From Naegleria gruberi (Eukaryota), in assembly GCA_000004985.1 (NCBI GenBank), contig GG738852.1: a DNA stretch of 64,000 nucleotides, one strand, 5' to 3'. This document shows, piece by piece, positions 752 through 59,537 of the stretch. Every line of letters starts with the position of its first letter. The first letter of the stretch is position 1. The notes beneath the pieces were generated by a model. The model ran no database searches and was not told the DNA's origin. It worked only from the letters and a program-made list of their open reading frames with translations. The position numbers and the translations under genes were made by a program.

Positions 752-1470
752 TTATCTAATCAAAAGCAAACTCATAACAAAACCAACAGTAATATAAATA
801 ATCATTACTAAGGAGAAAGTAGATGAAGATTCACTTTCCTTTCTATCCATATAATCATAATAATTGGATGGAAGTGGAGTAATGTAATCTGGAATTTTTC
901 CAATCATTTCAACAGTCTTACTACATGAGCTAGGTGCAAAAAAGTCAACCTTCATAATCTTGGCGTCATTATGTCTACACATATCATCCAATCCAGCTGG
1001 TCTTGGAGATTTAAAGTTGGTTTTGGCAAATAATATACTACTCTTATCTCCTTGTTTGAAATTGTAATACTTTTCGTATCCAGTTCCAGACATAACCAAT
1101 GGTCTTTCAAAGACAATATTAATATTGGATGAGGTATTAGTGGTTCTCGAATATCCTGCTCCTTTGAGTTGAGGAACAAGCTTATCAGGAATAGCATCGG
1201 AACCAGCAATGTATTCATGGAAGTAATGATTATAGTAGACATCTCTGTATCCAACATAGATTAAGCTGTTTAGCATTTTGGAATTATCTACACCTCCATC
1301 AACTGGAACTGGATCTAAATACTCATATCCCTATTTAATAATAGTAATATTTAAATATTAAAATTGAAGAAATTAATAATCTAAATAATTAATTATAAAC
1401 GTACACTTCTGAATCCGATGCCAGCCCACCCATTAGCAGCATCAGTAAAAACAGCTCTTCCATCTATCCA
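752..1470 (-). CDS. Hypothetical secreted/membrane protein (C-terminal TM). Terminal exon 752..1331; upstream exon about 1395..1470 joined through a 61-nt GTACGT...AAATAG intron. Further 5' exons (signal-peptide-like MMSLRLGFAAVVIVLLL around 1680) are unresolved.
   Basis: ORF 752..1276 stays open upstream to the acceptor AAATAG|GGATATGAG at 1331. The phase-0 join gives ...TDAANGWAGIGFRS|GYEYLDPVPVDGG.... There is a hydrophobic C-terminus. Confidence 0.4.
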
Positions 1471-2206
1471 TCATTTAATAATAATATATTAATTTCCAAT
1501 CTTTAAATACCATCAAATATTAAACCTACAAATCTTTGAATCCTTAATCGTCCAGAAGAAGTAATTATTATTGTACTCCACACAATTCTCATACACAACA
1601 TCAGCATCAACAAACAAAATACTTCCGAGCAGGAGGACTATCACCACAGCTGCAAATCCCAATCTAAGGCTCATCATCAACAGCTAAGATTTTTTCTAAA
1701 TAAAAGAACAATATTTTCAGAGGGGAAATCAAGATAAGGTGATCAGTCTGATCTTACGGCGTTTTGAAACGCCCTTAAACATAACTAACTGTTGTATCGG
1801 AGGTTTTTGAGAAGATCCTCGAAATGAAATATTTCTTCAGGTGGTTATGATCTGACATCTAATCCATTATAATAGATAATACTTGTACGGTAACAATTCC
1901 ATTAAACCTGATATTGTTTCTAATAATTTTTCAGTTTGTTGAAGTTCGAATAAACTTATCCTTTAGAGGAAAACAAACACTCAAATTCCGAGCCAATGAG
2001 TAGCCCACAAATAGATGAATCTTATAAATGTTGTGAAATATTCACACAACCCATTCGATATCTCAACATCAGTAATGTAACATTCTTTGAAGATTCCTCC
2101 AAATTGACAACTTTTTTTGCATGAAACACCTTCAACCTCGCAGGGATCTAGCCGCAAACTGGATTTGGCGCGGTTTTGAAAACCAATTAAAATCCTCCTC
2201 GAAAAA

Positions 2207-3380
2207 ATGTCCAAAAAGCAAAGAATGGATCCACAAGGTTATCTCTTGGCCACTGATGAAATATCCGTTGTCCTATCATTCATCAATGATCACAAGACAT
2301 TAAATAATTTATCATTGTGTAACAAGGCCATACACAGTCAAATCGATCACATTGTGAATGGTTTGGTAGAAAGTCCACAGAAATTAATAGATTTTTGGAG
2401 AAGTAAATCGATTGATCCTGTTCTTGCATTCACCTATTTGAAGGAGACAAAAATCAAGTTACCATCCTATTCAGAAACTTTATTGAAATCATGCAATATG
2501 CATGTTGATTTGTTTTACAAAGCTTTCAAGTAAGTAGTTGTAGTATTGTTAATCATTATTTCACACATTTTAAAACCAAAACCTACTAAAATCATGATAA
2601 TGAAACAGTCGTTGTCCAGGAGGAAATGTTGATGCATTTATTCTAATGTGGAGACTTTTATTCACACATGATGAAGGACTCAAAGTTTGGCGTTGTTCTG
2701 CAAGAAACTGGGATGGCTCTTATTATGCATATAATCCATTTTGGAGTGAAGAAAAGAAGCCAAATTGGCCACAACTTTTGAAATGTATTATGAAGCAATC
2801 CATCAAGCATAAATCAGTTCTTTTCACCGAATTGATTCCTGAATTTGATAGTGATGAGTATGATACTGATTGGGCTCAAGTTCAAGCTCAAGTTTTTGTT
2901 AATAATGCCAAATTACTTGATTTTAAAAAGAAACTTGTAACAAACAAGAAGGAAAATACTAATCCAATCAAGACAGCTAAGAAATCTAAAAAGTCTAAAA
3001 AATCTGATACACCAACCTTAATTGACCACTCCAATCCATTAACTCTTCTAGATGAAATCAAAGAATTTTGTCAAGTCAAACTTCCTGTAAATGAATCAGA
3101 TGATTTTGAAGATGAGTATGGATCCATGTCAAAATCTGGAAAGGAGTTCAGAAGAGGTGCAAAATCAACTAGTCTTGCTGAAAATGATGGTGATTGTGAT
3201 GACGATTATCATGATGTTTTTGCATCTCATTTGGAAAATATTATTGAGAGAATTAAAAAGATTGAACCAGTTCCACCTAAACAAGTATTGAATCAAGATG
3301 ATGATGATCTAATGATAATGAAGACAATGATGAAGAACAAGATGAAGAGGAAGAGGATGAGGATGAATAAATCATCTTGA
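2207..3380 (+). CDS. F-box-like protein with a K/D/E-rich tail; 2 exons (2207..2529, 2609..3380; intron 2530..2608)
   Basis: N-terminus ...LATDEISVVLSFINDHKTLNNLSLCNKAIHSQI resembles an F-box. The donor TTCAA|GTAAGT places TAA inside the intron consensus. The acceptor AAACAG| restores the frame of ORF 2646..3380. Confidence 0.5.
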
Positions 3381-3475
3381 ATTTTACTGTATTTCCAATA
3401 AATACAAATTCAAACAACATTGATCTTGCAACAATTAAGTGGTTGTCAATTTTCTTTCAAGTTATTATTAAAAAA

Positions 3476-6400
3476 ATGAATAAATTGCGTTCTGTTGTGT
3501 CAAAGAAGAAACAACGTTACCAAAAGGAAGGTTTTGACCTCGACTTGACGTACATTAGTGATCGTGTCATTAGGTAAGTTTCTACTCGAAAGACAATAGT
3601 TTCGAATAAAGAATAGTATGGGTTTCCCTTCAACAGGTGCAGAAAGTTTGTACAGAAATCCTTTGGAAGAAGTAAAATCCTTTTTCCAGTCCAAACACGA
3701 CGACCACTACAAGATTTATAATTTGTGTTCGGAGAAGAATTATGATCCTAGTGTATTTTCGAATCGTGTTGCTAGGTAAGTTTCGAATAGAATAATAATA
3801 GTAACACCTTTTATAGATTCCCATTTGATGACCACAATGCTCCACATTTTTCATTAATTTTGGATTTTTGTGAAGGTGAGTTTAAAGTTTCGAATTGTTT
3901 GATGGAATTGTATAGATGCTTGTCGTTACTTGATGGAAGATAAACAAAATACTCTTGCTGTTCACTGTAAAGGTAAGTCTAAATTGCTATGAATTCATTC
4001 CATTGACATGTGACTTTAGCCGGCAAAGGAAGAACTGTATGTTTTTCTAATAGTATTTGAAAATTAATGTTTTAACAACAAAAAATATCCATTAACAATT
4101 ATCATCAACACACAACCGATATTTCATCATCAATCATACCAATTATGTCATTGCACAAATTTCTCTCTCAAATAGGGTACTATGGTTTCATCTTTGATGA
4201 TTTATACTGGTTTCTGCTCAACTGCATCCGAAGCTATGGAATTATTTGGTAGAATCAGATGTAATGATTCTAAAGGTGTGACTATTCCTTCTCAGAAGAG
4301 GTAAGTTTTGATGCATTTTTCTTCATTTACTAAAGATTTTCAATGTTAATCATTCGATCATTGTGAAATCTCTGAAATAGATATGTTCAATATTTTGAGG
4401 AATGTGTTGTTCATAGAGGAATGAGATTTCCAACAAAAGATGCGAAAATTACACTCAAAGCTGTTCATATGAATTCAGTTCCACACTTTGATAGAGATGA
4501 AGGAAGTGATCCATACTTTGTCATTCATCAACCTTTCTATGATAAGGAAACAAGAGATAATTATCGTATGGAAAAGTTATTTGATTATTCGGTAAGTTGA
4601 TCATTTTACATAATTTGCTGAAATTCACACAATTTGTAGCAAAATGAAAAAGTTAAACATTTAAAGAAGGGAGAGGAAGTTTGGATTAAAAATTTGAATA
4701 TTGACCTTTCTGGTGACTTTAGAATGATTTTCTATGATATGGATAAAGTCAAGAAGGATGAAAAAATGTTCATGCTTTGGTTGAATACAAACTTTTTACA
4801 CTTGCACCAACCTTACAATTCTTCCAATTCAATTCCACATAGAAAATTTTTGGGTCCTAATGATATTGTTGTTAGAATTCCAAAAGTTGAATTGGATAAA
4901 GCTGTAAAAGACAAGAAGAATCAAGCATTTGATGCTGATTTTTATGTTGACTTGATTATTGAAGTGAAGGAACCAAGTCAATATTCTGAACCACACAAAT
5001 TTGTGTACAATACACCAGACAGTGGAAAGGAATTGTTTGGAGAAATTCAACAATACGCTAAAACTGAAGCTTCAAGCAAGGAAAAGGAAAAAGCCAGAAA
5101 ACAATACGAACAAGGTAGAGAATTCTTTGCATTGAAACAATATTCCAATGCTGTTACATCTTTCTCGAATGCTATTTTGATTGATAGTGGATTTGAGGAA
5201 GCTTACATGTCAAGAGGTTTAGCTAACATGAATTTGAAACGTTTCCCTGAAGCAATTTACGATTTCACAACTGTTTTGAATATTCTGGCTAAGGGAACTA
5301 CAAGTTTGGGTGAAGATATTCCAATTCAAGATAGTATTACAATTACTTTAAGAGCATATCACTCCAGAGGTAAATGTCATACTAAAATGAAGGAATATGA
5401 ATTTGCCATCAAGGATTATGATAGTGCCACTTCAATTTTAGAACATGCTCAACATATTGGAAACGATGGATGTTCTACCACTACTGTATCCAACAATAAT
5501 CACTCTACATCTCCTTTCACTGATTCACTCTTCCAAACATTCTTTAGAGTTTATCTCGATAGAGGTCTCATTAACGATGCTCTTCAAAAATACTCTGACT
5601 GTATTATTGATTATACTAACTTTATCAAATATATGGATCCACTCTCTGAATCTCTAGTTGTTAAATTGAGAGAAGGTAAAATAACTGCAAACAAGTATGA
5701 ACAATACTTGTTTGAATTGTTCCAAGCCTTTTACAATAAGGCAATTGCTATTGGAAAGGTCGATAATTATCCTAACAAGGAAACTCAAGTATTCCATGAC
5801 TTGAACAAGGCAGTTGATTATATTGAAAAGATGTCTGACCCAATTAACAGTCCAGATGCTCTAGTATTTGGTCAAGTCTACCTTGCCAGAGGTGATAGAC
5901 AAACAGATAAGGAAGCTGCCATTAACGATTTCCTTAAATGTCTCTTATATGATAAGACTAACAGGATAGCTACAAAGAGATTGGCTGTTTTACTCTATGA
6001 ACAAAAGCAGTACAAGAGAGCTGTTCTCTATTTTTCAAAACTCATCAAGGATGAACCACAAAATGTCAAAATGCTTACCAATAGAGCTATTTGTTATTTA
6101 AAATTGGAACTTTATGAAAATGCCATTGTTGATTTTAAGGCAGCTCAGAATTTATCACCTGATACTATGAATTTATATGTACAATGTGCCAGATGCTACA
6201 GAAGAAAACACGAACTCTCAGACCCAGCTCAAATACCTCAAAAAGAATTGGAAGATTGTGAAATTCAATATTCAACAGCTATTGATTATCTTCAAAAGAG
6301 AAAGAAGGCAGCTACTCCATCCACTCCAAGCACACCAACTCTCTCTTCATCCTCAACTATTAAGGACGATGATCTTAAAACTCTCTACTTTGAACGTGGT

Positions 6401-6724
6401 ATGACTAGATTCGCTCTGAAAAAATACGAAAGTGCTATTCTCGATTATAGTCATTGTCTTGAACTCGACCCAAATCATTCCCTAGCTCTCTACAATAGAG
6501 CTTACACTCGTCAAAAATTCTTGAAACAATACGACAAGGCCATCACTGACTATGAACAAGTTCTGACCTTCAATTCATCTGATCTAAAGGCACGTCTTGA
6601 AAAGGGATGTTGCCTCTACTATTTAAAGAAAGATGAAGAAGCAATTATGGAATGGCAATTAGTATTGAAAAAAGATCCAAACAATGAAGCTGCCAAAGTG
6701 TATCTTTCCCAATTAGCTAAATAA
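3476..6724 (+). CDS. PTEN-like lipid/protein phosphatase (phosphatase + C2 domain) fused to a C-terminal TPR-repeat domain of roughly 480 aa. 8 exons: 3476..3573, 3617..3775, 3817..3875, 3916..3972, 4020..4036, 4176..4300, 4381..4591, 4640..6724.
   Basis: The spliced product reads KKQRYQKEGFDLDLTYISDRVIS|MGFPSTGAESLYRNP...HYKIYNLCSEKNYD...FPFDDHNAPHFSLILDFCE|DACRYLMEDKQNTLAVHCKAGKGRTGTMVSSLMIYTGF...KGVTIPSQKRYVQYFEE.... This is collinear with human PTEN including the HCKAGKGRTG P-loop, followed by a C2-like region (MFMLWLNTNF). Exon 8 continues into many TPR-like 34-aa repeats (AYMSRGLANMNLKRFPEAIYDF...). Confidence 0.85.
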
Positions 6725-14122: not shown

Positions 14123-15298
14123 TCAATCACGATTATGGTGTGTTTTATGGTGTTGATGATGGTCAAGTACTTTTTCATTCATGGATTGGAAATTCATTTG
14201 GATGGAATGAAGGAGAGCTAGTTGTGCTCTTGTTCTGATGAGATTGTGTTGTGGATAGGTAGTTTTGTAATAGGTATCACCGTTGATGTAATCTGTTAGA
14301 AATCTCAATGCCTGCTCAAAGGTAATATACTTGGCACTGAAAGCTAGATATTCAATTTCGATATCTGTGAGGAATTTGTAACCCTCAGAGAGATATCCAT
14401 TGGTAAAGCTTTCGAATATGTCCATTTTGAGATGAATGTTTTGAGTATTTGGATCATCTTCTGTAGATGTGTTACAATACGAACGAATGGCATCTCCAAA
14501 ATCATTCAATACTGTACTGCACATTACAGTGTCAAGGTCAATTAAGCAACATGCCTTATTGGTCTCAGTATCGAATAAAATATTACTTAATTTCGTATCG
14601 TTATGAGTAATTCTCAGTGGAATTTTGTTACTTTCTACCAATTCCCAAAAATCAATCATTTCCTTTCTATAATTTTCCACAATTCCAATTTCATCTTTCA
14701 CTTCCTCCAATCTGTTAACAATATTCCTTTCAATGGCTTGATCAAATTGTTCAAATCTGAATTTAATATTGTGAAATCCAGGTAACACATCCTTAATAAT
14801 GCATTCTCTATTTTCATAGGTGATATTTCCATGGCTCTCAGAAACCAAATCAGAAAGCATATTCTGGAATTTTCCAATCATTTTACCTCCTTCAAACGCC
14901 AACTCTTCCGAATCAGCCTTTTCATGAGTAGTGGTATTTTCTATAAACTTAAACATGGTCCAATATTGAGAGTTTTCCGAATCTTGATTCTCAATCAATT
15001 TGTAAAATAATTTTCCATCATTGATGGTAGGAACAATAGAAAGAGTCTCCCTATCCGGATTTCCTCCCAATTTTGCAATTTTCCCTCTCAAATGTTCAAT
15101 CACGAGGGAAATATTATTCATCATGAGTTGAATGTTTTTAAATATTTTGTGATTCTTTCGTTGGAGAATGTATTTATTGTTCGGAGAGGGAATGTTAAGT
15201 TCTACCAGATAGGTATCATTGATGAGTCCACTCGGAATTGGTTCGATATTTATATTTCCAAGATTTGGACCTAAAAATTGGCTTACGATTTCATTCAT
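14123..15298 (-). CDS. Aminoglycoside-phosphotransferase / choline-kinase-like (APH family) small-molecule kinase
   Basis: N-terminal GLINDTYLV nucleotide-binding-like motif. HNDTKLSNILFD...CLIDLDTV catalytic (Brenner) motif. Confidence 0.55.
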   Translation of the reverse strand: MNEIVSQFLGPNLGNINIEPIPSGLINDTYLVELNIPSPNNKYILQRKNHKIFKNIQLMMNNISLVIEHLRGKIAKLGGNPDRETLSIVPTINDGKLFYKLIENQDSENSQYWTMFKFIENTTTHEKADSEELAFEGGKMIGKFQNMLSDLVSESHGNITYENRECIIKDVLPGFHNIKFRFEQFDQAIERNIVNRLEEVKDEIGIVENYRKEMIDFWELVESNKIPLRITHNDTKLSNILFDTETNKACCLIDLDTVMCSTVLNDFGDAIRSYCNTSTEDDPNTQNIHLKMDIFESFTNGYLSEGYKFLTDIEIEYLAFSAKYITFEQALRFLTDYINGDTYYKTTYPQHNLIRTRAQLALLHSIQMNFQSMNEKVLDHHQHHKTHHNRD

Positions 15299-15340
15299 TT
15301 TTTTTTGTTGAAATACTTTACAATGACTATTATTTAATAA

Positions 15341-16516
15341 TTATTCTTGATCATCTTCTGCTTGATAATTTTCATCATTAGCATCTTCCTCTTCGTAATA
15401 TTCATCATCTTCATCAATATCTTCCTCATAATCCTCATCATCATCTTCCTCATCTTCTTCCTCATCATCGTCATCATCCATGTAAAGTGAAATTGGTCTT
15501 CTAATTCCAATGAGAACTGTTTTCATTTGAGTGACAAAGGCAACATTATTGGCCTCATCTCCCTCAATGCAGAATGCAAGTGTGAAATCATCCGTCTTGT
15601 CTGAGATAAATTGATTCGTTTCAAAGGTATTTCTTTGTAAAATCAAATTGATAGAGTGTTTCTTTTCCTGCTCTGAAACATATTCCTGTAATTTGCTGAC
15701 ATAGAGACAAATTTCAATTATCTTTTCTTTGAGTTCCTTTTTAATGTTTGCATGATTGGCTTCAATACTGTCCATGAAACTTAAATATGATCTCGATGTC
15801 AAGTACCAAATCATTTTTGGAGTTGAAGTTGTAACATCATGTTTCGAATAGGAAGCACTCATACCAAGATTTGGAATATTTTGCTTTGGAATAATTGAAA
15901 AACTCAATGTAAATGTTGAGCTTTGTCCCATTCCCAAATCTTTTGTAACTTGTTGACCTTTAAATGTTGAGAGAAATCTGTTTTGAAACCAATTCACATG
16001 TTTGACTTGTTCCAAAGGATAATACCTCGATGCCAATTCAAATGCCTTGCTCACTCTCATCATTTGAATGATTTCTCTCAATGTAAGAAATGGAAATATG
16101 TGATTATTAATAATTTTGAATGGAATTTGCTTTTTACAAATAGAATACTTTAACTTTTCAAGATCGGACCTGAAAGATTCATGATTTTGTGTTTTCTTTC
16201 TTTCCTTGATGAGTGATGATCTCATCTGACGAGCAAATTCTTCAATTTTTCCAATATTTAATTTTCTGTCTTCTGATGATGAGGTTTCGTCTGTTGGATT
16301 TTCGTTTTCTTGTTGAGGAGGATTGGCTGCCTCTTCATTATCGTCATCATTGGTTGATTCGTCATCTCGGGATTTAGTTTTCAACATGTCGTTGAATAGT
16401 TTCTCCTTCTCATGATATTCCTTTAGTCTTTGTTCAGTTTCTCCTAACAAATCACTATCGAATAAATTTTCAAAATTACCCAGAAGAGAAAGGTTCTTAA
16501 ATTGTTGTGGAAGCAT
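15341..16516 (-). CDS. Hypothetical protein with an F-box-like motif and a poly-acidic (D/E) C-terminal tail
   Basis: IPFKIINNHIFPFLTLREIIQMMRVSKAFELASRY; C-terminus DDDDDEEEDEEDDDEDYEEDIDEDDEYYEEE. Confidence 0.4.
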   Translation of the reverse strand: MLPQQFKNLSLLGNFENLFDSDLLGETEQRLKEYHEKEKLFNDMLKTKSRDDESTNDDDNEEAANPPQQENENPTDETSSSEDRKLNIGKIEEFARQMRSSLIKERKKTQNHESFRSDLEKLKYSICKKQIPFKIINNHIFPFLTLREIIQMMRVSKAFELASRYYPLEQVKHVNWFQNRFLSTFKGQQVTKDLGMGQSSTFTLSFSIIPKQNIPNLGMSASYSKHDVTTSTPKMIWYLTSRSYLSFMDSIEANHANIKKELKEKIIEICLYVSKLQEYVSEQEKKHSINLILQRNTFETNQFISDKTDDFTLAFCIEGDEANNVAFVTQMKTVLIGIRRPISLYMDDDDDEEEDEEDDDEDYEEDIDEDDEYYEEEDANDENYQAEDDQE

Positions 16517-16677
16517 TTTTTTGTAATTGGTTAATTGGTTTTTGATGTGAAATATCCAGTTAGTTTATTATTGAAATAGAGCTTCATTTTGAGTTAATTG
16601 CTTTCACATCAAATGTTTAGTCTTCAAATGCCTCAATTTTGTTGATGTCTTAAATTTCTTAATATATCATCTTGTTA

Positions 16678-18483
16678 TTAGTAATCATTCCATAATCCAA
16701 TATCCAATTTTTTCTCATTAAGTTCAAATCTTGCACTGTTGTGTCCACAAAGACATTTGCAAATATCATTGAAACAGAATGATTGAATTCCATCAAACAT
16801 ATCTCTTGGAATGATTGGGGAATGATTGGCAATTCCTAGTAAATTTGGAATATCAAAATGCTTTGGAATATTGATATTTAGTGGAGAATCTCTTTCAAGG
16901 TATAAACTAATAATTTGAAGAGCTGTTTCTTTTGTAATTGGTAATTTTCCTGTTTTGAATAGCTCAATATCATACCAAGCTAACATTTGCTCTGGATGGT
17001 AACCTCTTCTTGCAATATCCAAAATTTCTGCATACGCATCTCCTTCTTTTAGTTTGATTGCAACCTCCATTGAAATTTCTTCGCTATTCTTTGAGTCATA
17101 TCTCACAGAATACAAGACAGGAAGGAATATTGTAACAAATTGTTCAATGGTACAATAGAATAACATGCAAGTACCAAAAGGAAAGAAATAGTCAACCAAT
17201 TGGACTATAATATCAATTTGACTAGTAATAATATAAATAAGACAAAAGATGAGTTGGACAACCACTACAGCTAGAGTTTCTTTCTTAATATACCAAATAT
17301 CCTTATCAGTCCTAATAGAAAGAATGACAAATATTGTCTCAATAATTATATAAATAACGGCCTCACATGTAACCAAAATAGAGGTATTCTTCTCCACAGA
17401 ACATCCTCTATCAAATAAAAAGGTTCCTCCATCTACAAAGAAAAGTTTTGTTTCCACAAGCTCATCCGAAACTCCAACTGAGACCCAAAGAGCTACATGT
17501 ATAAAAACAATCAAAATAAGTGCCGGTATTAAGAATTTTGAGCTCAAAAGAAATGAGTAAATTTTGATAAACCTCTTCTTGCGTTCAATGTCCCTGTTTG
17601 ATATTGCAGATGCATTTGTTGTTTTGTTTTCCGAATAAATACTTTGATCATGCATTTCATGTTCATTGCCTAATTCTTTCTGCAATGTAAACAGTTCAAT
17701 TTTTTTCTTACAGAGCTTAAATTTAAAGAAGAGTCTAAAGCATTTGTAAATGGTAGGAAGAAAAATACTTGCAGGAAATAAAAAGTAAATGCTCGAGTAC
17801 AAAATGCATGGAAATGCAGATCTCCCAACTATGAATCTAATACTAAGAATTGATTCAAATATCACATTTCCAGTTAGTGAAAATAATAGAGACAATGGAT
17901 GCCTCTCCTTAATGTGCCTACTCTTCCATTTCCACACTAGGCCAATAAAAGTCAAGAATGTTATCAGTAAATAGATCAAGTAAAATATTGCAGATAGAAT
18001 TGGTGTGAAAATAGTGTCAGGACACAGCCCATAAATCTCTGTAGGCCTCTCCTCTCTCGAATAGCCTCCATTAAACAGAAAAGGATCGCAACTCGTCGCT
18101 ACAGATGCATTATAATTTGGAGTTGTTGAGAGTATGGTATGAAATATTTGGTCCATGTATTCCTTAACTACATGGTCATGCAAGCCTAGATGTTGTGCTA
18201 TTGATTGCACAAACGTATTTTCATTTACAGACGATGATGAAGATGTCAATTCCAAATCATGTTCCGAACAAGTCACAACATTTATCAAAGTACTCATCAA
18301 GGCCACCATTATCAATGTATTTAGAAAAAGCCAGTTAGTTTGTTTCATCTTTTTAAAGCCAAAGTTTATGTTATATTGATGTTGCTGTTGATGTTGTTCT
18401 TCTTTTCGTTGGTGAGTTGATGAAATTGCTTTTGATGTCATTGTGCGTTCATTCTTTTTTTTATGGGATTCAAAAATGTTCAT
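16678..18483 (-). CDS. Seven-transmembrane receptor-like protein with a C-terminal RGS (regulator of G-protein signalling) domain
   Basis: Seven hydrophobic helices between about residues 150-460. The C-terminal ~130 aa (ISMEVAIKLKEG...MLAWYDIELFKTGK...LQIISLYLERDSPLNINIP...MFDGIQSFCFNDI) matches the RGS-box pattern (xFWxxVExFK ... IYxxYL...INI...). Confidence 0.55.
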   Translation of the reverse strand: MNIFESHKKKNERTMTSKAISSTHQRKEEQHQQQHQYNINFGFKKMKQTNWLFLNTLIMVALMSTLINVVTCSEHDLELTSSSSSVNENTFVQSIAQHLGLHDHVVKEYMDQIFHTILSTTPNYNASVATSCDPFLFNGGYSREERPTEIYGLCPDTIFTPILSAIFYLIYLLITFLTFIGLVWKWKSRHIKERHPLSLLFSLTGNVIFESILSIRFIVGRSAFPCILYSSIYFLFPASIFLPTIYKCFRLFFKFKLCKKKIELFTLQKELGNEHEMHDQSIYSENKTTNASAISNRDIERKKRFIKIYSFLLSSKFLIPALILIVFIHVALWVSVGVSDELVETKLFFVDGGTFLFDRGCSVEKNTSILVTCEAVIYIIIETIFVILSIRTDKDIWYIKKETLAVVVVQLIFCLIYIITSQIDIIVQLVDYFFPFGTCMLFYCTIEQFVTIFLPVLYSVRYDSKNSEEISMEVAIKLKEGDAYAEILDIARRGYHPEQMLAWYDIELFKTGKLPITKETALQIISLYLERDSPLNINIPKHFDIPNLLGIANHSPIIPRDMFDGIQSFCFNDICKCLCGHNSARFELNEKKLDIGLWNDY

Positions 18484-34985: not shown

Positions 34986-35381
34986 TTATTTACAATCATC
35001 CATAATTTCCTTACTGATCTGTTCAACGATTTTGGCTTCCTTTGCTGCTGTTTCATTATCAGAATCAATCATTCCTATTAATTGAGTTGGTAACATCGTT
35101 GTCATCTTTAATGGTCCACCTTTTACTTCAGAATAGATCATTACTCTACAAGGAAGTGCCAAAGCAATCATTCTGTTCGATTTCACAACAGACGAAGCAA
35201 TCACAGGATTACAAATCTCGCACACTATACATTCCTCATCATATTCAATTTGTTTTTCATTGAATTTTTGCTTGAAATTATGAGAAATCAAAACTCCGAA
35301 CTGTCTCTTCTGACAAGATTGTTTGAAACGTTCGATGAGAATTGATGGCTCAGTTTCACTAGTTTCAACAGTGTAATACAT
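34986..35381 (-). CDS. DUF302-family protein (bacterial-type small conserved protein)
   Basis: 131 aa, ...FGVLISHNFKQKF...CNPVIASSVVKSNRMIALALPCRVMIYSEVKGGPLKMTTMLP..., typical DUF302 pattern. Confidence 0.5.
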   Translation of the reverse strand: MYYTVETSETEPSILIERFKQSCQKRQFGVLISHNFKQKFNEKQIEYDEECIVCEICNPVIASSVVKSNRMIALALPCRVMIYSEVKGGPLKMTTMLPTQLIGMIDSDNETAAKEAKIVEQISKEIMDDCK

Positions 35382-49922: not shown

Positions 49923-52139
49923 ATGTTTCTTCGTCGTATGATTAATGCCATCTCACAATCATCAGAGTCTGGCAAATCTGATAATTCGGCCTATGCTCTC
50001 AATATTGACCATATGGAAATACCTATAGAGGAGTGGAGTCATAAAGTGGTCACATGTTTTTTGTATAAGGAACAATTTTTCGAATTAATTCCCAAAGTTA
50101 CGAAACTGAAATATGAAGGTGTTGATTTTCTGACAAAAAACAAGGAACAATTGACTGCCGAGTTGAAAGTACATGAAGACGAAATTACTGAGTTGATGGC
50201 TAGAATCGAAAGTGTAAAAGTGAAACAAAAGTATTATTCGAAGGCTAATAGATTGACACTTTCAGAGACAGATACAGCAGATATTAATTCTCAACCAGCA
50301 GTTGGAGACCCATCATCGCCAAACAATACTTCAAACGGAATTGCCATCAAAAACAAACCAATCGATTCAACAAGAAATATGTCAGGCTCGCCGAGTGCAC
50401 AAACTTTATCTGCATCACCAATGAATGGAAGTAGAGTTCCTCCACCTGGCCTCACTGAATTGGATAGACAGAGGAGAGGCACTGGGTTGGAGAGGGGCAA
50501 ACTTCCAAGCTCTCCAACAGGAGCAACCTCTCCTTCGAGCTCATCAATTTCACCACCAGCATCATCATCAGGAGAAGCACATTTAAATATTAGTAATATT
50601 CAACTTTTGAAAATTGTGGAATCATTTAAGAGACAACTCAAGGAAAATGATCTTCTCGCAGAAAGATCATACCGACTCAATAAGTATAAGAATACATTTA
50701 CTGGAAGCGATGCAACCACATTATTGCATAAATTGATGAGAGATGTGGCAAAATCTGCAACGAGATTCGATGCCATTGATTTGGGAAATGCAATGATAAG
50801 AGATGGATTCATAAAACATGTTGCCGAAGATGAAGACTTTAAAGATGAGCCAGGTCAATTGTACTTTATTTCCGACGATCCTAGAGCAAGAGACAGTTTG
50901 AACTTGAATAATAAGAAGGGAAGTTCTGCATTCTTTGCCGAAGAGGACAGATCCATCACCAAAGATATAATGACACCTGCAGCTACTGATTTAATTTATA
51001 GAGGTGATTGTGCCTCCAAGATGATTGTACTGATTAAGAATACAGACACTTTGCTCGAGTCTTTAATTTTCCAAGCAGGAATGCTCAATGATAAGGAGAA
51101 GAAGACATTGGAAGCCGTTACTAAAAAGCTCAAAAACTTGAACTATCCTGTCCCAGAGGTTCAAATTAGTTTGGTAGCTCAAGATTTGAGTTTGTCAGAG
51201 AGATACTTGTACAGTTATTTGAATCCAAACAGAATTCCAAGAGCTAAGAAGACTCTTTTGCAAGAAAAATCATGTGGAAAACAATTTATGGATATTGGAT
51301 TGGCCTTGACATGTACAGAAGGATTGGCTGGAGAATTTTACACTTTCGCATTAATTGTAGGAACATTTATTGTGGAATTTTCGGATAGATGTCATTTGGC
51401 ATTGGTAAGAGAAAAGGATTCGAGCTTTGTCAACTTTTTCCATATCACAACTATCAATGATAAGGAAAATATCGAATTGTGCTTAAAAACAGTTAGTAAG
51501 TGCTGTGTAAAGTGGAATGAAAAACCAGTTGCAAAGAATATCAACTCTAAAACTTTTGTAACTGAACTTTTCAGATGGATTGACATTCCTGAAAGTGTGA
51601 TTGAAACTGTTGCCTCAGATATGGACTTTATATCAAACTATCCAATCAACTCAAAATCACTCTTCTTACAAAAGGGACAACTGGAAGAAATTTACAAAGT
51701 ATCCGAGACTGTAGAAATTACTTCATCACTTCAAACACTTCTCAGTCAAATTACCAATCAAACCATTACATTCTACAAACATTCTGATTTGGCTGAATTC
51801 TACTTGATTGCATCCCACCTTTTGAATCCTGTTCAAAAACTTCTCATTTCCTCCTTTGCCAAGACATTTATGAGACAATTCAATGAGGGTATTAATTTAC
51901 CAAACTCTGAACCAATGTCCTACAAGGCAGCAAAGAAAATAACCAAAGAGAGATTATGTAAAATAGATGATGTTTTTACATGCCCATTTAAAGGTCATGG
52001 AATTTGCACAAAGAATGTAAAATATCCAAAAGCTGCAAATAGTGAAAACGAAACTCCAGTCCAATCTGAAAGCTCTCCTTCCGATTCTCTGACCTACCAA
52101 TACTTCCCTTGTAACATTTCATTACCTACCAGACAATAG
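49923..52139 (+). CDS. Signalling protein with an N-terminal SAM-like domain and a central DEP domain
   Basis: WSHKVVTCFLYKEQFFELIPKVTKLKYEGVDFL (SAM-like); RSYRLNKYKNTFTGSDATTLLHKLMRD... (DEP-like); S/P-rich linker. Confidence 0.5.
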   Translation: MFLRRMINAISQSSESGKSDNSAYALNIDHMEIPIEEWSHKVVTCFLYKEQFFELIPKVTKLKYEGVDFLTKNKEQLTAELKVHEDEITELMARIESVKVKQKYYSKANRLTLSETDTADINSQPAVGDPSSPNNTSNGIAIKNKPIDSTRNMSGSPSAQTLSASPMNGSRVPPPGLTELDRQRRGTGLERGKLPSSPTGATSPSSSSISPPASSSGEAHLNISNIQLLKIVESFKRQLKENDLLAERSYRLNKYKNTFTGSDATTLLHKLMRDVAKSATRFDAIDLGNAMIRDGFIKHVAEDEDFKDEPGQLYFISDDPRARDSLNLNNKKGSSAFFAEEDRSITKDIMTPAATDLIYRGDCASKMIVLIKNTDTLLESLIFQAGMLNDKEKKTLEAVTKKLKNLNYPVPEVQISLVAQDLSLSERYLYSYLNPNRIPRAKKTLLQEKSCGKQFMDIGLALTCTEGLAGEFYTFALIVGTFIVEFSDRCHLALVREKDSSFVNFFHITTINDKENIELCLKTVSKCCVKWNEKPVAKNINSKTFVTELFRWIDIPESVIETVASDMDFISNYPINSKSLFLQKGQLEEIYKVSETVEITSSLQTLLSQITNQTITFYKHSDLAEFYLIASHLLNPVQKLLISSFAKTFMRQFNEGINLPNSEPMSYKAAKKITKERLCKIDDVFTCPFKGHGICTKNVKYPKAANSENETPVQSESSPSDSLTYQYFPCNISLPTRQ

Positions 52140-52565
52140 TCAACCCATTTTGCCACCTTAATTTCCAATTTTGATTAAAAATAATTCTCTGTTCAATTGG
52201 AATGTTGCTATTATTCACACAAAATACAATACAATATTGAGCGAATTCAATTATCCAGCTATTGAGAATATTCCAGTATCATCAGCCAAGTATCAACGAC
52301 CTATAGAACTACTTAATACCCAGCTGTTTTTCTGATATTATCCAGATGTCGATACTTCCAAACAAGAACCAGAGAATATTCTAACATCCACACTCAGCAC
52401 TACACCCCAACAATGTTTGGCATTAATTCCTTGTTTATCTTGCGCTTGATGGTTTACAGATTGACTTGTTTGGTCTCGAGCGTTTAAAAGTGGAGCTTCT
52501 GAAAAAAACGAATCAAAAAAAAAATAACTTTAATTCTCTCCCTATTTAATAATAATAATAACAAA

Positions 52566-53737
52566 ATGAAGATTGCTGTTTTCAGTGCCAAGCCATACGA
52601 TGAAGAATACATGACCAAGACTAATGAAGTTTTGGGTCAAGGAAAGCACGAAATTAAATATATCAAGTCTCCTCTTGATGAAGCTCACGTTCCATTGGCT
52701 CAAGGCTGTGATGCTGTCTGTGTCTTTGTTAATGATCCTGTTACTGAAGTTGTTGTTGATGCTCTTGCATCATATGGAATCAAGTTGATTTTGTGTAGAT
52801 GTGCGTAAGTATCTTTTCCGAATCTATTGGATTAATAGTTCAATTTTGTATTCAAAATATCTTTCTTCCATATTTGATATTATTAATGTTTTATACAAAA
52901 CTATCTAATACAAAAAATCTAATACAACAACAACAACAACAACAATAACAACGAAACAGTGGATACAATAATGTTAATCTTGCTGCTTGTAAGAAACACG
53001 GAATTACAGTTGCTCGTGTTCCAAAATATTCACCATATGCCACTGCTGAACATTCTGTTGCCTTGATGATGACTCTCAATAGAAAGACTCATCGTGCTTA
53101 TAATCGTGTTAGAGAAGGTGATTTCAGTATTAATGGATTGATGGGATTCGATATGAATGGTAAGAAAGTTGGTGTTATCGGAACTGGTAAAATTGGATAT
53201 TTGGTCTGTAAGATCTTAAAGTGTGGATTTGGTTGTGATGTTGTTGCCTATGATGTTTACCAATCTGCTGAAGTTAAAAGCATCGGAGTTGAATATGTTG
53301 ATTTGGATACACTTTTCAGAACATGTGACATTATTTCTCTCCACTGTCCACTTTTCAATAATACCAAGTATATTATCAATGATGAAGCTTTGGAAAAGAT
53401 GAAGAAGGGTGTTATGATTATCAATGCTTCTAGAGGTGCTTTGGTTGATACTAAGGCAGTTATTAAGCATTTGAAGAATGGTAAAGTTGGATCTTTGGGT
53501 GTTGATGTTTATGAAAACGAAGCCAATACTTTCTATGAAAATCACTCATCTGATCTCTACTTGAGCGACGAATTATTGCTCCGTCTCATGTCTTTCAAGA
53601 ATGTCCTTGTTACATCTCACCAAGCTTTCTTCACACAAGAAGCCATGCAAAATATTGCTGACTCTGTTTTCCACAGTGCCACCCAATACCAAACTGAAGG
53701 TAAGGTCACTGGTGAAGAATTTGTCCCATGCGAATAA
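52566..53737 (+). CDS. ldhA: Fermentative D-lactate dehydrogenase, bacterial LdhA-type D-2-hydroxyacid dehydrogenase; 2 exons (52566..52805, 52959..53737)
   Basis: Collinear along the whole length with enterobacterial LdhA: MKIAVFSAKPYDEEY...CDAVCVFVNDPV...ILCRCA|GYNNVNLAAC...VARVPKYSPYATAEHSVALMMTLNRK...GVIGTGKIG...SLHCPL...MIINASRGALVDT...GVDVYENE...SHQAFFT. It is interrupted by a 153-nt GTAAGT...AACAG intron carrying a (CAA)n run. Confidence 0.9.
52924..52952. repeat. (CAA)n microsatellite inside the ldhA intron
   Basis: acaacaacaacaacaacaacaataacaac read directly. Confidence 0.8.
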
Positions 53738-54203
53738 GTGCTACACACTCTAAGAAAACTGTAAATAAAAACAAATAATTATTTAATTGGTGGGCTTGCC
53801 TTAGTATCAACCTTTCTCATAAATGTCTTCTTTGGAAAGGCAATTCCAGATATTTGCAATAATTATGAGTTCAGATTGACTATTCTTTAATCTAACTGAA
53901 ATTTGAAACTGATATCGCTCAACAATCTGTTTGCTGTTTTTTCCAACAAGCTATCCTTCCTTATTTCCTTCATAATTTTGAACTGATAGTTAATATAGAC
54001 AACCGAATCGTTATTAATTTTCTTCTTTTGAGGAGCAGTACGTTGTTCTGTAACCAACACAGTGCAAAACACATTAATAAGGGAAGGAATAGAGTGTGCA
54101 AATGGTTTGAAAGAGGACAGACTGATTTGAGAAAAGTCACATATCTTGGTCATTGTAGCTGAATTTTCCCTCCTTCTCGTATTATGTTGTTACAATATAT
54201 CTT

Positions 54204-55415
54204 CTATTCCTCTTTATGTTGAGTGATAAATCCATCCTCATCCACCACTTGATTTTCAGGTTCAAATGAAGGTTTTTCAAGTGATGGAAGTAATTTCATC
54301 GAGTAGGGATGAATCTCTTGAACCGATAAATCTTCCAAATCTATCAGTATCCATTTAGTTTGTTGAGAAAATTCTTGAATATTATCGAATTTCAATCTAG
54401 ACTCAATAGATGGTGTACACAACTTGTACAGAAAGCATGTATCATTCAATCGACAATGTCCAATAATTTTCATCTTATCACTGAAATGTTTGTAGAAATT
54501 TTTAAAGTCACTTCTTGCTAACTTTCCATTCGTTTTTCCATCATCCATTACCTCGAAAGTTAATTTCCTGATGAGATGATGATTTTTCTTTGATTTCCTA
54601 TCTTCATAACTGATAATCAAATAATTATTCTCTTCACTGCTGCTACTCTGATTCAATCTTGATAAAATATTCGAATGAATAAGAAAACAGTGTGCGAATG
54701 GCATTGGAGAAATATTCACCACTTCCTTAATAAGTTTTGAAGAATCATTTGGTGCTTGTTTCAAAAAGGTTGGTTCAATTTGTAAAGTGTCTCGATGATG
54801 CTCCTCAAACATTAGAAACATGTCATGTTTGATGAAAGGCGTAGGAATAAGGTAATTCAAATGAGTAAAATGATCATTATTTGAAAATATAGGCAAGATG
54901 GGAGTCACTTCAAGCTTTGATCTTTCAATATCTTTCTGATCCAGCTCAATTGTAAACCTTTGAGCATAATATCCACAATAATAATCAAAAACCTTTAAAG
55001 TACCATTCCTTGTACTAGGATGTCCATTAATCAATGCTTGTTTAAACACATAATCATATCTATCATATTCCAATACTGTTTGTTTCCCACAAAAATCAAA
55101 AAAGTATTTTCTTGTTAAATTTCCATCATTTTCATTATGCAACAACAAGGAATTTAATCTCAACATTTTCACCTTCATATTCACTGTAACTCCTTCATTA
55201 TATTTTCCCTCTCGTTCCGATCTCTTCACCAAACACACTGCATGGGAAATGTTCGGATCATGTTTTGAAGGAAGATTTAAATGATTGGTTTCATCATTTT
55301 GATTTTCCAAAAAGTAATAACGAGAATGTAAATTATTGGTTAATGGGGGTGAGGAACAAACAAAAGCAATGGGAATGGTGGCATATTCTTCCTCCCTAAA
55401 ATCTAAATGCGCCAT
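54204..55415 (-). CDS. Hypothetical protein (403 aa), no recognisable domain
   Basis: Long uninterrupted ORF with a codon bias matching the neighbouring genes. Confidence 0.35.
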   Translation of the reverse strand: MAHLDFREEEYATIPIAFVCSSPPLTNNLHSRYYFLENQNDETNHLNLPSKHDPNISHAVCLVKRSEREGKYNEGVTVNMKVKMLRLNSLLLHNENDGNLTRKYFFDFCGKQTVLEYDRYDYVFKQALINGHPSTRNGTLKVFDYYCGYYAQRFTIELDQKDIERSKLEVTPILPIFSNNDHFTHLNYLIPTPFIKHDMFLMFEEHHRDTLQIEPTFLKQAPNDSSKLIKEVVNISPMPFAHCFLIHSNILSRLNQSSSSEENNYLIISYEDRKSKKNHHLIRKLTFEVMDDGKTNGKLARSDFKNFYKHFSDKMKIIGHCRLNDTCFLYKLCTPSIESRLKFDNIQEFSQQTKWILIDLEDLSVQEIHPYSMKLLPSLEKPSFEPENQVVDEDGFITQHKEE

Positions 55416-58681: not shown

Positions 58682-59537
58682 ATGGTCAAACGTAAATTAT
58701 TGCTCATTTCCAATTCGACAAATTTCGGAGGAGAATATTTGGAACATTGTGCTAGTCAGTGCAGAGATTTCTTATCGGGATGTAAAACTGTTTGTTTTGT
58801 TCCGTATGCCTTGACTGATACTGAAGGCTATTTTAATAAGGTGGAAAATGGTATGAATTTAATATGAATTTTAGGAATTTAATTATTATTAATATTTGGA
58901 AAATATTTGGAAAATATTCGGAATGGAATATTAATTGTTATTATTATTATTTTAAATATTTGATGTAGCCTTTAAAAAGTATAATATTTGTGAACAAGTT
59001 ACAAATGTTGCTCAAAAGGGTGGAAATCCAAAGGAAATTATTCAATCGGCTGATGCTGTTTTTGTTGGAGGTGGAAATACATTTAGATTGTTGAAGAAAC
59101 TTTATGATAATGATTTAATTTCATTGATTAGAAAGAGAGTTTTTGAGGAAAATATGAGATACATGTCTGCTTCAGCTGGCACAAATGTTTCCTGCCCAAC
59201 TATAAGAACTACAAATGATATGCCAATCCTCTTCCCTCCATCTTTCAATGCTCTTCAACTTGTTCCATTCCAAATTAATCCTCACTTTATTGACAAGCAC
59301 ACTTTGGAATCATTAAAACATAATGGAGAAACTCGTGAACAAAGAATTCAAGAGTTCCACGAAGAATTGGAAAATCAACATGTTCCAGTAATTGGCCTCA
59401 GAGAAGGAGCCATGTTATTGGTCGAAGATGATACCATGACTTTGTGTGGAGCTAACGGGGCCAAAATATTTGCAAATTCACAAGAAATTGAAAAGGTAAC
59501 AGGAGATGATTTATCATCCTATTTGAAATCCAATTAA
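58682..59537 (+). CDS. pepE: Peptidase E (alpha-aspartyl dipeptidase, MEROPS S51), bacterial PepE-type; 2 exons (58682..58849, 58970..59537)
   Basis: LLLISNSTNFGGEYLEHC...VCFVPYA...; second exon ...ADAVFVGGGNTFRLLKKL...MSASAGTNVSCPTIRTTNDMPI...LQLVPFQINPHFID...NGETREQRIQEF... is near-collinear with E. coli PepE, including the Ser nucleophile context. Confidence 0.85.

What the first reader, a model, noticed from the sequence alone, without database searches (positions are those of the whole stretch)
52566..53737. Bacterial LdhA-type D-lactate dehydrogenase resident in the eukaryotic genome, with a spliceosomal intron
The protein is collinear essentially residue-for-residue with enterobacterial fermentative D-LDH (N-terminal MKIAVFS..YDEEY, NAD-binding GVIGTGKIG, catalytic R/E/H context). 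Yet it carries a 153-nt GTAAGT...AACAG intron with a (CAA)n microsatellite and has host-like codon usage. So it is not contamination but an integrated gene, probably of horizontal origin. The bacterial-type pepE (58682..59537) and DUF302 (34986..35381) genes in the same window make a pattern.
Basis: partly seen in the sequence, partly recalled or inferred. Interest (0 to 1): 0.5.

Follow-up and report, generated by a model that had tools for sequence, protein, structure and literature searches.

The report
Naegleria gruberi D-lactate dehydrogenase gene
This is the already annotated NAD-dependent D-lactate dehydrogenase gene of the amoeba Naegleria gruberi; it is a real host gene with one intron, and its bacterial-looking sequence belongs to a family found in many microbial eukaryotes, so a gene transfer from bacteria is possible but not shown.

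Summary
Window 52566..53737 (+) is a two-exon gene with a 155-nt intron (not 153), GTAAGT...CAG. The intron carries an (ACA/CAA)n microsatellite. The spliced 338-aa product is exactly XP_002680688.1, "D-lactate dehydrogenase [Naegleria gruberi NEG-M]". It has both D-2-hydroxyacid dehydrogenase domains and every catalytic, NADH-binding and pyruvate-specificity residue of E. coli-type LdhA.

It is not contamination. N. fowleri has the ortholog (81% identity), with an intron at the identical codon position and the same DEP-domain neighbour nearby. A second N. gruberi-like strain differs in the exons by four synonymous changes only. GC3 is host-like.

The horizontal-transfer reading is unproven. 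LdhA-type enzymes also occur in Willaertia, oomycetes, chytrids, ascomycetes, haptophytes, dinoflagellates and green algae. Identity to bacteria is flat, 47-56% across more than ten phyla, with no donor clade. In neighbour-joining trees only a heterolobosean clade (83-100% bootstrap) and its grouping with an unidentified environmental eukaryote (62-86%) get support. Every deeper node is unresolved, including monophyly of the eukaryotes (1%).

The supposed "pattern" is weak. The pepE-like gene matches a PDB chain named alpha-aspartyl dipeptidase (from memory the Xenopus enzyme; organism not listed) far better than Salmonella PepE.

Verdict: known gene, ordinary, low interest.

The parts
49923..52139 (+). 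Upstream neighbour, a DEP-domain protein (N. gruberi EFC47943.1). It serves as the synteny anchor.
   Evidence: Pfam DEP, 4e-13. Exact match to XP_002680687.1. The N. fowleri ortholog lies about 7 kb from the N. fowleri D-LDH gene on the opposite strand (L001 18136..20715).
52566..52804 (+). Exon 1 of the D-lactate dehydrogenase gene (codons 1-79 plus two bases of codon 80). It encodes the N-terminal part of the substrate-binding domain, including Phe54.
   Evidence: Splicing to exon 2 gives a protein identical to XP_002680688.1. One synonymous difference in a second strain.
52805..52959 (+). Spliceosomal intron, 155 nt, phase 2, GTAAGT...AACAG, 23% G+C.
   Evidence: N. fowleri has a 135-nt intron at the identical CDS position, with no detectable similarity in its interior. 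In a second strain the intron carries a 9-nt deletion, whereas the exons have no insertion or deletion. No RNA evidence was available.
52924..52952 (.). (ACA/CAA)n microsatellite inside the intron; its length differs between strains.
   Evidence: Tandem Repeats Finder: period 3, 9.7 copies. Three units are missing in the metagenomic contig L002.
52960..53737 (+). Exon 2 (last base of codon 80 through the TAA stop). It encodes the NAD-binding domain and the catalytic residues Arg238, Glu267 and His300.
   Evidence: The N. fowleri locus matches at about 85% by translated comparison. Three synonymous differences in a second strain.
53764..53769 (+). AATAAA hexamer 27 nt after the stop codon, a candidate polyadenylation signal (inferred only).
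   Evidence: Read directly from the sequence. Not tested.

Best explanation
The locus is the single-intron nuclear gene for the NAD-dependent D-lactate dehydrogenase of Naegleria gruberi NEG-M. The enzyme belongs to the LDHD subfamily of D-2-hydroxyacid dehydrogenases, in the E. coli LdhA-type subgroup.

Mechanism, inferred from 50-55% identity to solved LdhA-type enzymes with every functional residue conserved:
- NADH binds the Rossmann domain (G154-x-G156-x-x-G159). Asp178 selects NADH over NADPH.
- Arg238 holds the carboxylate of pyruvate. The His300/Glu267 pair transfers the proton.
- Phe54, Tyr103 and Phe303 restrict the pocket to pyruvate-sized substrates.
- The reaction is the reversible interconversion of pyruvate + NADH and D-lactate + NAD+.

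The protein starts flush with residue 1 of the bacterial enzymes, so it has no N-terminal extension and is probably cytosolic.

Physiological direction is inferred, not shown. N. gruberi is reported to be an obligate aerobe. The more likely role is therefore oxidation of D-lactate to pyruvate, with the D-lactate coming from digested bacterial cell wall (the MurNAc-6-phosphate etherase route) or from methylglyoxal detoxification. A transient redox valve under hypoxia is also possible. Sustained lactate fermentation is less likely.

Evolution. The gene has been inherited vertically at least since the common ancestor of Naegleria and Willaertia. The intron was present before N. gruberi and N. fowleri diverged. 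The family is bacterial-like, but whether heteroloboseans got it by a separate transfer from bacteria, from another eukaryote, or from an older eukaryotic ancestor cannot be resolved with the present data.
For: - Identity: the spliced product is an exact full-length match to XP_002680688.1/EFC47944.1/D2V5G4, 'D-lactate dehydrogenase [Naegleria gruberi]', and both neighbours match N. gruberi proteins exactly.
- Family: Pfam 2-Hacid_dh (2e-30) and 2-Hacid_dh_C (1.1e-51). The best solved relatives are the LdhA-type D-LDHs 4cuj, 3wx0 and 5z20 (1e-97 to 1e-101), against 1e-53 for Lactobacillus-type D-LDH and 1e-45 or weaker for phosphoglycerate dehydrogenases.
- Residues: F54, Y103, the GxGxxG motif, D178, R238, E267, H300 and F303 are all conserved in a 57-sequence alignment. 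Their roles are taken from PMC6303947.
- Intron and vertical descent: N. fowleri P0001 is 81% identical and its gene has a 135-nt GT..AG intron after the same CDS nucleotide, 239. The DEP-domain neighbour and two other genes are shared between the two loci. Willaertia magna has an ortholog at 73%. The Naegleria+Willaertia clade has 100% bootstrap.
- Selection: against a 97.8%-identical second strain the exons show 4 substitutions in 1017 nt, all synonymous, and no insertions or deletions. The flanks show 3-6% substitutions plus insertions and deletions, and the intron has a 9-nt deletion.
- Physiology: a D-LDH acting on bacterial cell-wall D-lactate in free-living protists, N. gruberi included, is proposed in PMC7052976 and PMC9928731. 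N. gruberi did not grow without oxygen and gave no evidence of anaerobic energy metabolism (PMC6205838).
Against: - No transcript evidence for the splice junction and no enzymology for any heterolobosean D-LDH was available.
- No NCBIfam model reached its curated cut-off. The best were vanH_gen at 217 bits against 540 and PRK08605 D-LDH at 210 against 356. Those models appear to cover other D-LDH lineages.
- Codon-usage correlation with neighbouring genes is somewhat lower (r = 0.72) than for most window reading frames (0.78-0.95). This could reflect expression-linked codon bias or a residual foreign signature.
- The cytosolic location and the direction of the reaction in vivo are inferences.
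Confidence: 0.85

Rival explanations
1. A bacterium donated an ldhA gene directly to a heterolobosean ancestor. The gene then took on host composition and gained a spliceosomal intron.
For: - Outside the Heterolobosea, bacterial proteins are among the closest named matches: 54-57% for Pseudopedobacter, Sphingobacteriales, Udaeobacter and Cytophagaceae. Most other eukaryotes are at 46-51%.
- One neighbour-joining tree placed the clade next to Cytophagales, but with only 13.5% bootstrap.
- Eukaryotes are not recovered as a single group (1% bootstrap).
- Published analyses of D-LDH genes suggest several transfers between eukaryotes and prokaryotes (PMC7052976, citing Nyvltova et al. 2015). I could not confirm that the same enzyme family was analysed there.
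- The environmental sister sequences have no intron, which would fit a later intron gain in Naegleria.
Against: - There is no donor clade. Identity is flat at 47-56% over Bacteroidota, Planctomycetota, Verrucomicrobiota, Lentisphaerota, Cyanobacteria, Proteobacteria, Firmicutes and Fusobacteria.
- An ascomycete (Metarhizium, 55-56%) is as close as the best bacteria.
- The only supported neighbour of the heterolobosean clade (62-86% bootstrap) is a group of environmental sequences on a eukaryotic contig.
- Composition is fully host-like, so any transfer would be old.
Confidence: 0.4
2. The gene is an old eukaryotic gene, present in an early eukaryote (possibly from the mitochondrial endosymbiont or an early transfer). 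It was inherited vertically into Heterolobosea and lost in many other lineages.
For: - The family is present in Heterolobosea, oomycetes, dinoflagellates, haptophytes, green algae (Chlamydomonas 4zgs, Bryopsis), chytrids and ascomycetes.
- In the named-taxon neighbour-joining tree all eukaryotic sequences lie on one side of the tree, next to one another.
- PMC6303947 groups the eukaryotic enzymes with the non-Bacilli bacterial subgroup.
Against: - The split separating eukaryotes from bacteria has 1-4% bootstrap.
- Distribution among eukaryotes is patchy.
- Long-branch attraction could explain why the eukaryotic sequences sit together.
- Other Discoba (jakobids, Euglenozoa) were not sampled here.
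Confidence: 0.3
3. The gene moved between eukaryotes. Heteroloboseans and the unidentified environmental lineage (P0082/P0026/P0304) share it by eukaryote-to-eukaryote transfer.
For: - The environmental clade is sister to the heterolobosean clade with 62-86% bootstrap.
- Its contig L004 carries a Rab32-family GTPase and other eukaryotic genes but no detectable heterolobosean affinity.
Against: - The environmental lineage could simply be an unsampled heterolobosean, which would make this vertical descent.
- Support for the grouping is moderate and comes from neighbour joining only.
Confidence: 0.15
4. The locus is bacterial contamination or an assembly artefact.
For: Only the strong similarity to bacterial LdhA.
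Against: - A frame-restoring GT..AG intron conserved in position in N. fowleri.
- Eukaryotic flanking genes that are syntenic in N. fowleri.
- Host-like G+C and third-position G+C.
- The same locus in an independent metagenomic assembly.
Confidence: 0.01
5. The enzyme is not a lactate dehydrogenase in vivo. It would instead reduce another 2-keto acid such as glyoxylate, hydroxypyruvate, 2-ketobutyrate or phenylpyruvate.
For: LDHD members accept several small 2-keto acids, and subfamily membership does not fix the substrate (PMC6303947).
Against: The Phe (beta3-alpha3), Tyr (beta5-alphaA) and Phe (betaG-alpha5) residues linked to pyruvate preference are all conserved: F54, Y103, F303.
Confidence: 0.12

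Closest known systems
Naegleria gruberi D-lactate dehydrogenase, XP_002680688.1 / EFC47944.1 / UniProt D2V5G4 (genome annotation)
   Same: Identical over all 338 residues. The same scaffold and the same neighbours.
   Different: Nothing. This is the same gene.
Naegleria fowleri FDP41_005781 (P0001) and Willaertia magna ABK040_009693 (P0002)
   Same: Orthologs at 81% and 73% identity, of the same length. The N. fowleri gene has an intron at the same codon position and shares neighbouring genes.
   Different: The intron differs in length and sequence (135 against 155 nt). The neighbourhood is locally rearranged. The structure of the Willaertia gene could not be checked.
Enterobacterial fermentative D-LDH (LdhA; PDB 3wx0 and 4cuj) and Pseudomonas aeruginosa D-LDH (5z20)
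   Same: Collinear two-domain fold. About 50% identity. The catalytic Arg/Glu/His residues, the NADH-selecting Asp and the Phe/Tyr/Phe substrate pocket are the same.
   Different: It is encoded in a eukaryotic nucleus with an intron. There is a 3-residue insertion near residue 25 and a longer C-terminal tail. It is no closer to enterobacteria than to a dozen other phyla.
Chlamydomonas reinhardtii D-LDH (I recall PDB 4zgs as this enzyme; the tool lists no organism), described as the only eukaryotic LDHD studied biochemically (PMC6303947)
   Same: The same LDHD subgroup; E = 2.3e-84.
   Different: The Chlamydomonas enzyme works in chloroplasts and the matching PDB chain has about 60 extra N-terminal residues. 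The Naegleria protein has no N-terminal extension.

Membership tests
LDHD subfamily of D-2-hydroxyacid dehydrogenases (E. coli LdhA-type subgroup) | Two-domain architecture: a catalytic 2-Hacid_dh domain interrupted by the NAD-binding 2-Hacid_dh_C domain | tested here: met
   Pfam PF00389 (residues 4-329, 2e-30) and PF02826 (residues 113-302, 1.1e-51), both far above their gathering scores.
LDHD subfamily of D-2-hydroxyacid dehydrogenases (E. coli LdhA-type subgroup) | Catalytic Arg-Glu-His triad | tested here: met
   R238, E267 and H300 align with R234, E263 and H295 of the enterobacterial enzyme. These columns are invariant, or invariant apart from one gap, in 57 sequences.
LDHD subfamily of D-2-hydroxyacid dehydrogenases (E. 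coli LdhA-type subgroup) | GxGxxG dinucleotide-binding motif, with a conserved Asp in the betaB-alphaD loop that gives NADH preference | tested here: met
   G154-T-G156-K-I-G159, and D178 in 'VVAYDVY'. The criterion comes from PMC6303947.
LDHD subfamily of D-2-hydroxyacid dehydrogenases (E. coli LdhA-type subgroup) | Pyruvate-sized pocket: Phe in beta3-alpha3 (E. coli F51), Tyr in beta5-alphaA, Phe or Tyr in betaG-alpha5 | tested here: met
   F54, Y103 and F303. The criterion comes from PMC6303947.
LDHD subfamily of D-2-hydroxyacid dehydrogenases (E. coli LdhA-type subgroup) | Closer to LdhA-type D-LDHs than to Bacilli-type D-LDH or to other 2HADH subfamilies | tested here: met
   PDB search: LdhA-type chains at 1e-97 to 1e-101, Lactobacillus D-LDH at about 1e-53, phosphoglycerate dehydrogenase at 1e-45, glyoxylate reductase at 1e-35.
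LDHD subfamily of D-2-hydroxyacid dehydrogenases (E. coli LdhA-type subgroup) | Passes a curated NCBIfam D-LDH model | tested here: not met
   PRK08605 scored 210 bits against a cut-off of 356, PRK12480 187 against 579, and vanH_gen 217 against 540. Judging by their names and scores, these models cover other D-LDH lineages. No LdhA-type equivalog model appeared among the matches.
LDHD subfamily of D-2-hydroxyacid dehydrogenases (E. coli LdhA-type subgroup) | NADH-dependent reduction of pyruvate to D-lactate, measured | not testable with these tools
   Requires enzymology.
Spliceosomal intron | GT..AG boundaries whose removal restores one continuous conserved reading frame | tested here: met
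   GTAAGT...CAG. The length of 155 nt shifts the frame and read-through hits a stop codon at once. The spliced product is collinear with its homologs and equals the annotated protein.
Spliceosomal intron | Position conserved in orthologs while the sequence is free to vary | tested here: met
   N. fowleri has its intron at the same CDS nucleotide, 239, in phase 2, with a different length and sequence. Between strains the intron has a 9-nt deletion and the exons have none.
Spliceosomal intron | Spliced transcript observed | not testable with these tools
   No RNA-seq data were accessible.
Gene acquired by horizontal transfer from bacteria | Recipient sequences nested with strong support inside a specific bacterial clade | tested here: not met
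   Neighbour-joining trees of 126, 143 and 57 sequences give under 15% bootstrap for every node beyond the heterolobosean clade plus the environmental eukaryotes. Identities to bacteria are flat. The method is weak: neighbour joining on a single gene.
Gene acquired by horizontal transfer from bacteria | Absence from related eukaryotes (restricted distribution) | tested here: inconclusive
   The family is present in three heteroloboseans and at least seven other eukaryotic groups. Other Discoba were not sampled.
Gene acquired by horizontal transfer from bacteria | Physically integrated among host genes | tested here: met
   The flanking genes are N. gruberi proteins and are syntenic in N. fowleri.

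The most novel reading that the evidence does not exclude
A heterolobosean ancestor acquired an LdhA-type D-LDH from a bacterium, possibly one like Bacteroidota or Verrucomicrobiota. The gene then duplicated (Willaertia has a second paralog) and gained a phase-2 intron in the Naegleria lineage. The intronless environmental sister sequences would preserve the pre-gain state. That would make this locus a datable example of intron gain in a transferred gene.
Probability: 0.3. Interest if true: 0.25.

Novelty: already known. Interest (0 to 1): 0.1.

Why it matters
It matters little beyond bookkeeping. The gene has been annotated as D-lactate dehydrogenase since the N. gruberi genome was published. 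Its family is already described as occurring in bacteria and lower eukaryotes. D-LDH has been discussed in Naegleria metabolism (digestion of bacterial cell wall) and in the literature on gene transfer.

The useful outcomes here are three:
- a firm exclusion of contamination;
- evidence that the intron and the locus predate the N. gruberi/N. fowleri split;
- a caution that 'looks like E. coli LdhA' is not evidence of a lineage-specific transfer when the family is spread across many eukaryotic groups and the tree is unresolved.

Tried and rejected
- Willaertia gene structure: the encoding-contig look-up for P0002 found nothing, so conservation of the intron position beyond Naegleria is untested.
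- Key papers not held by the library: Nyvltova et al. 2015 and the N. gruberi genome paper. I could not check whether D-LDH is on the published list of N. gruberi transfer candidates, or which D-LDH family the cited phylogenies used.
- Phylogeny: three neighbour-joining analyses with Kimura or gamma distances and 100-500 bootstraps resolved only shallow nodes. No maximum-likelihood software was available.
- Identifying the environmental sister lineage:
  - a homolog search with P0082 gave no named close relatives;
  - a translated comparison of its contig with the two Naegleria loci matched only the D-LDH gene;
  - its Rab32-like neighbour has best hits of about 50% to animals, fungi and Capsaspora. 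It is a eukaryote, but the lineage is unknown.
- Rfam found no RNA family anywhere in the window, so there is no sign of an RNA gene hosted in the intron.
- Contamination was considered and rejected (see the rival explanations).
- Structure prediction was not run. Identity of 50-55% to several solved structures makes it unnecessary.

Full report
**What is there**

Window 52566..53737 on the + strand holds two reading frames that cannot be joined without splicing. The first runs from the ATG at 52566 and stops at a TAA at 52806..52808. The second continues to the TAA at 53735..53737 in a different frame. Removing 52805..52959 joins them into one 1017-nt coding sequence of 338 codons. Tandem Repeats Finder reports an (ACA)x9.7 array at 52924..52952 inside the intron.

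The whole window is 33% G+C and is evenly composed.

**Which gene and which organism**

The spliced protein is an exact full-length match to XP_002680688.1 / EFC47944.1 / UniProt D2V5G4, named "D-lactate dehydrogenase [Naegleria gruberi strain NEG-M]". It lies on a 938,756-bp scaffold. The two flanking reading frames are exact matches to the neighbouring N. gruberi proteins EFC47943.1 and EFC48111.1. The window is therefore N. gruberi NEG-M, and my splice model equals the public gene model. The gene is already annotated.

**Family and mechanism**

- Pfam finds both halves of a D-isomer-specific 2-hydroxyacid dehydrogenase: 2-Hacid_dh at 2e-30 and 2-Hacid_dh_C at 1.1e-51.
- Among solved structures the best matches are the LdhA-type D-lactate dehydrogenases 4cuj/4cuk, 3wx0/5z1z and 5z20, at 1e-97 to 1e-101 and collinear over residues 1-324. 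Lactobacillus-type D-LDH follows at about 1e-53, and phosphoglycerate dehydrogenases and glyoxylate reductases are weaker still.
- In a 57-sequence alignment every functional position is conserved. These are the dinucleotide-binding motif G154-x-G156-x-x-G159, the NADH-selecting Asp178, the catalytic Arg238/Glu267/His300, and the three pocket residues Phe54, Tyr103 and Phe303.
- The published 2HADH classification links those three pocket residues to a preference for pyruvate (PMC6303947).
- No NCBIfam model reaches its curated cut-off. Judging by their names, the D-LDH models in that library cover other lineages (VanH and PRK08605/PRK12480-type enzymes).

I conclude, by inference from homology, that the product is an NADH-dependent pyruvate/D-lactate oxidoreductase. 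It has no N-terminal extension relative to the bacterial enzymes, so it is probably cytosolic.

**Physiological role (inferred)**

N. gruberi trophozoites did not grow without oxygen and gave no evidence of anaerobic energy metabolism (PMC6205838). Sustained D-lactate fermentation is therefore unlikely.

Published genome-based accounts propose another role. They suggest that D-LDH in free-living protists, Naegleria included, handles the D-lactate released from bacterial murein by N-acetylmuramate-6-phosphate etherase (PMC7052976; PMC9928731). Oxidation of D-lactate to pyruvate, or a short-term redox valve, is the most plausible role. Neither has been shown.

**Not contamination; inherited vertically within Heterolobosea**

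- The closest database proteins are from N. fowleri (81% identity, 338 aa) and Willaertia magna (73%).
- The N. fowleri gene spans 1152 nt for 338 codons. Its only frame-restoring GT..AG intron is 135 nt and sits after CDS nucleotide 239, exactly as in the window.
- A translated comparison of the two loci matches both exons but not the interior of the intron. It also shows that the DEP-domain gene next to D-LDH in the window (49923..52139) lies about 7 kb from D-LDH in N. fowleri.
- Two further N. fowleri neighbours match genes near the start of the window. Synteny is therefore conserved but rearranged.
- A metagenomic contig (L002) is 97.8% identical to window 52442..54575 and must come from another N. 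gruberi-like strain. Against it the exons differ by four substitutions, all synonymous, with no insertions or deletions. The intron has one substitution and a 9-nt (CAA)3 deletion. The flanks differ by 3-6% plus insertions and deletions.
- G+C at third codon positions is 0.30, within the range of 17 other reading frames of the window. The correlation of codon usage with those frames is 0.72, somewhat below most of them.

**Is it a horizontal acquisition?**

The family is far from restricted to bacteria. Cluster names show LdhA-type proteins in the following:
- a second Willaertia paralog;
- oomycetes (Globisporangium, Pythium);
- chytrids (Boothiomyces);
- ascomycetes (Metarhizium, Exophiala, Helicocarpus);
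- a haptophyte (Chrysochromulina);
- dinoflagellates (Breviolum, Scrippsiella);
- a green alga (Bryopsis).

PDB chain 4zgs, which I recall as the Chlamydomonas enzyme, matches at 2e-84. The literature describes the subfamily as present in "bacteria and lower eukaryotes".

A scan of one genome per bacterial species returned 80 loci. Identities ranged from 47 to 56% and were spread over Bacteroidota, Planctomycetota, Verrucomicrobiota, Lentisphaerota, Cyanobacteria, Proteobacteria, Firmicutes, Fusobacteria and others. The best bacterium (56%) is no closer than the ascomycete Metarhizium (55%).

Neighbour-joining trees with bootstrapping gave these supports:

| Grouping | Bootstrap |
|---|---|
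| Naegleria + Willaertia | 100% |
| ... plus the Willaertia paralog | 83-98% |
| ... plus the environmental clade P0082/P0026 | 62-86% |
| every deeper node | under 15% |
| all eukaryotes against all bacteria | 1% |

The 27.7-kb contig carrying P0082 encodes a Rab32-family GTPase, a DUF4211 protein and a dual-specificity phosphatase, so it is eukaryotic. Its lineage could not be identified.

The data therefore neither nest the gene among bacteria nor place it in a supported eukaryotic clade. Published work on D-LDH genes reports weak support and suggests several transfers; I could not read the primary phylogeny. I rate a separate transfer from bacteria into heteroloboseans at about 0.4, older eukaryotic ancestry at about 0.3, and transfer between eukaryotes at about 0.15.

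**The claimed pattern**

The pepE-like gene is real. It spans 58682..59537 with a 118-nt intron at 58851..58968, and matches Peptidase_S51 at 2e-55. The DUF302 reading frame at 34986..35381 (- strand) matches Pfam at 4.6e-10.

However, the pepE-like protein matches a PDB chain named "Alpha-aspartyl dipeptidase" (7c9b, 1.8e-67) much better than Salmonella PepE (1fy2, 3.9e-38). A eukaryotic PepE from Xenopus has a published crystal structure. From memory, 7c9b is that Xenopus entry; the tool does not list the organism. This weakens the idea of a cluster of bacterial-type genes.

**Verdict**

It is a known, annotated member of a known family, and its horizontal origin remains an open but unremarkable possibility. 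Interest is low.

Noticed in passing
window 58682..59537 (+): A pepE-like gene with a 118-nt GTATGA...TAG intron at 58851..58968. It matches Pfam Peptidase_S51 at 2e-55. Its best solved relative is the chain 'Alpha-aspartyl dipeptidase' 7c9b (1.8e-67), far better than Salmonella PepE 1fy2 (3.9e-38). It therefore looks like the eukaryotic type and not a recent bacterial import.
   Followed up: partly
window 34986..35381 (-): A 131-aa reading frame matching Pfam DUF302 (4.6e-10). Its origin and distribution were not examined.
   Followed up: no
proteins P0130, P0131, P0135, P0139, P0141, P0173, P0176, P0207: A family of proteins of about 470-780 aa fuses an N-terminal cyclic-nucleotide-binding domain to an LdhA-type D-LDH. 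All eight long representatives tested had it, and many more representatives have the same length and layout. One is from the chytrid Boothiomyces. This suggests a D-LDH regulated by cyclic nucleotides.
   Followed up: partly
proteins P0121 (815 aa), P0122 (952 aa), P0123, P0124, P0126: Proteins with two or three tandem D-LDH units. P0121 and P0122 belong to dinoflagellate clusters (Breviolum, Scrippsiella). They could be true tandem fusions or merged gene models.
   Followed up: no
protein P0125 / P0271 (Willaertia magna KAL9651060.1, KAL9643756.1): Willaertia has a second, divergent D-LDH paralog of 357 aa, about 54% identical to the window protein and present in two copies. It branches at the base of the Naegleria+Willaertia clade with 83-98% bootstrap.
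   Followed up: partly
L004 7958..8965; L005-L007; protein P0304: An environmental clade of intronless D-LDH genes (members 66-69% identical to one another) is the nearest supported relative of the heterolobosean enzymes. Contig L004 is eukaryotic: it has a Rab32-like GTPase, DUF4211, a dual-specificity phosphatase and proteins rich in poly-Q and poly-T. It is 35% G+C and its lineage is unknown.
   Followed up: partly
L002 / L003 (metagenome run ERR1078381) against window 52442..54575: A second N. gruberi-like strain appears in a public metagenome at 97.8% identity. Its (CAA)n array in the intron is three units shorter.
   Followed up: yes
protein P0192 cluster (310 members): Proteins of about 435 aa from gut Firmicutes are annotated as a fusion of an HPr-family phosphocarrier protein with a 2-hydroxyacid dehydrogenase (Eubacterium).
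   Followed up: no
window 750..6724 against L001 5100..6000 and 14457..17922: Two genes that lie within 10 kb of D-LDH in N. fowleri (a 268-aa protein and a PTEN/TPR phosphatase-like protein) lie about 46-52 kb away in N. gruberi. The two species therefore differ by rearrangements within the chromosome.
   Followed up: partly
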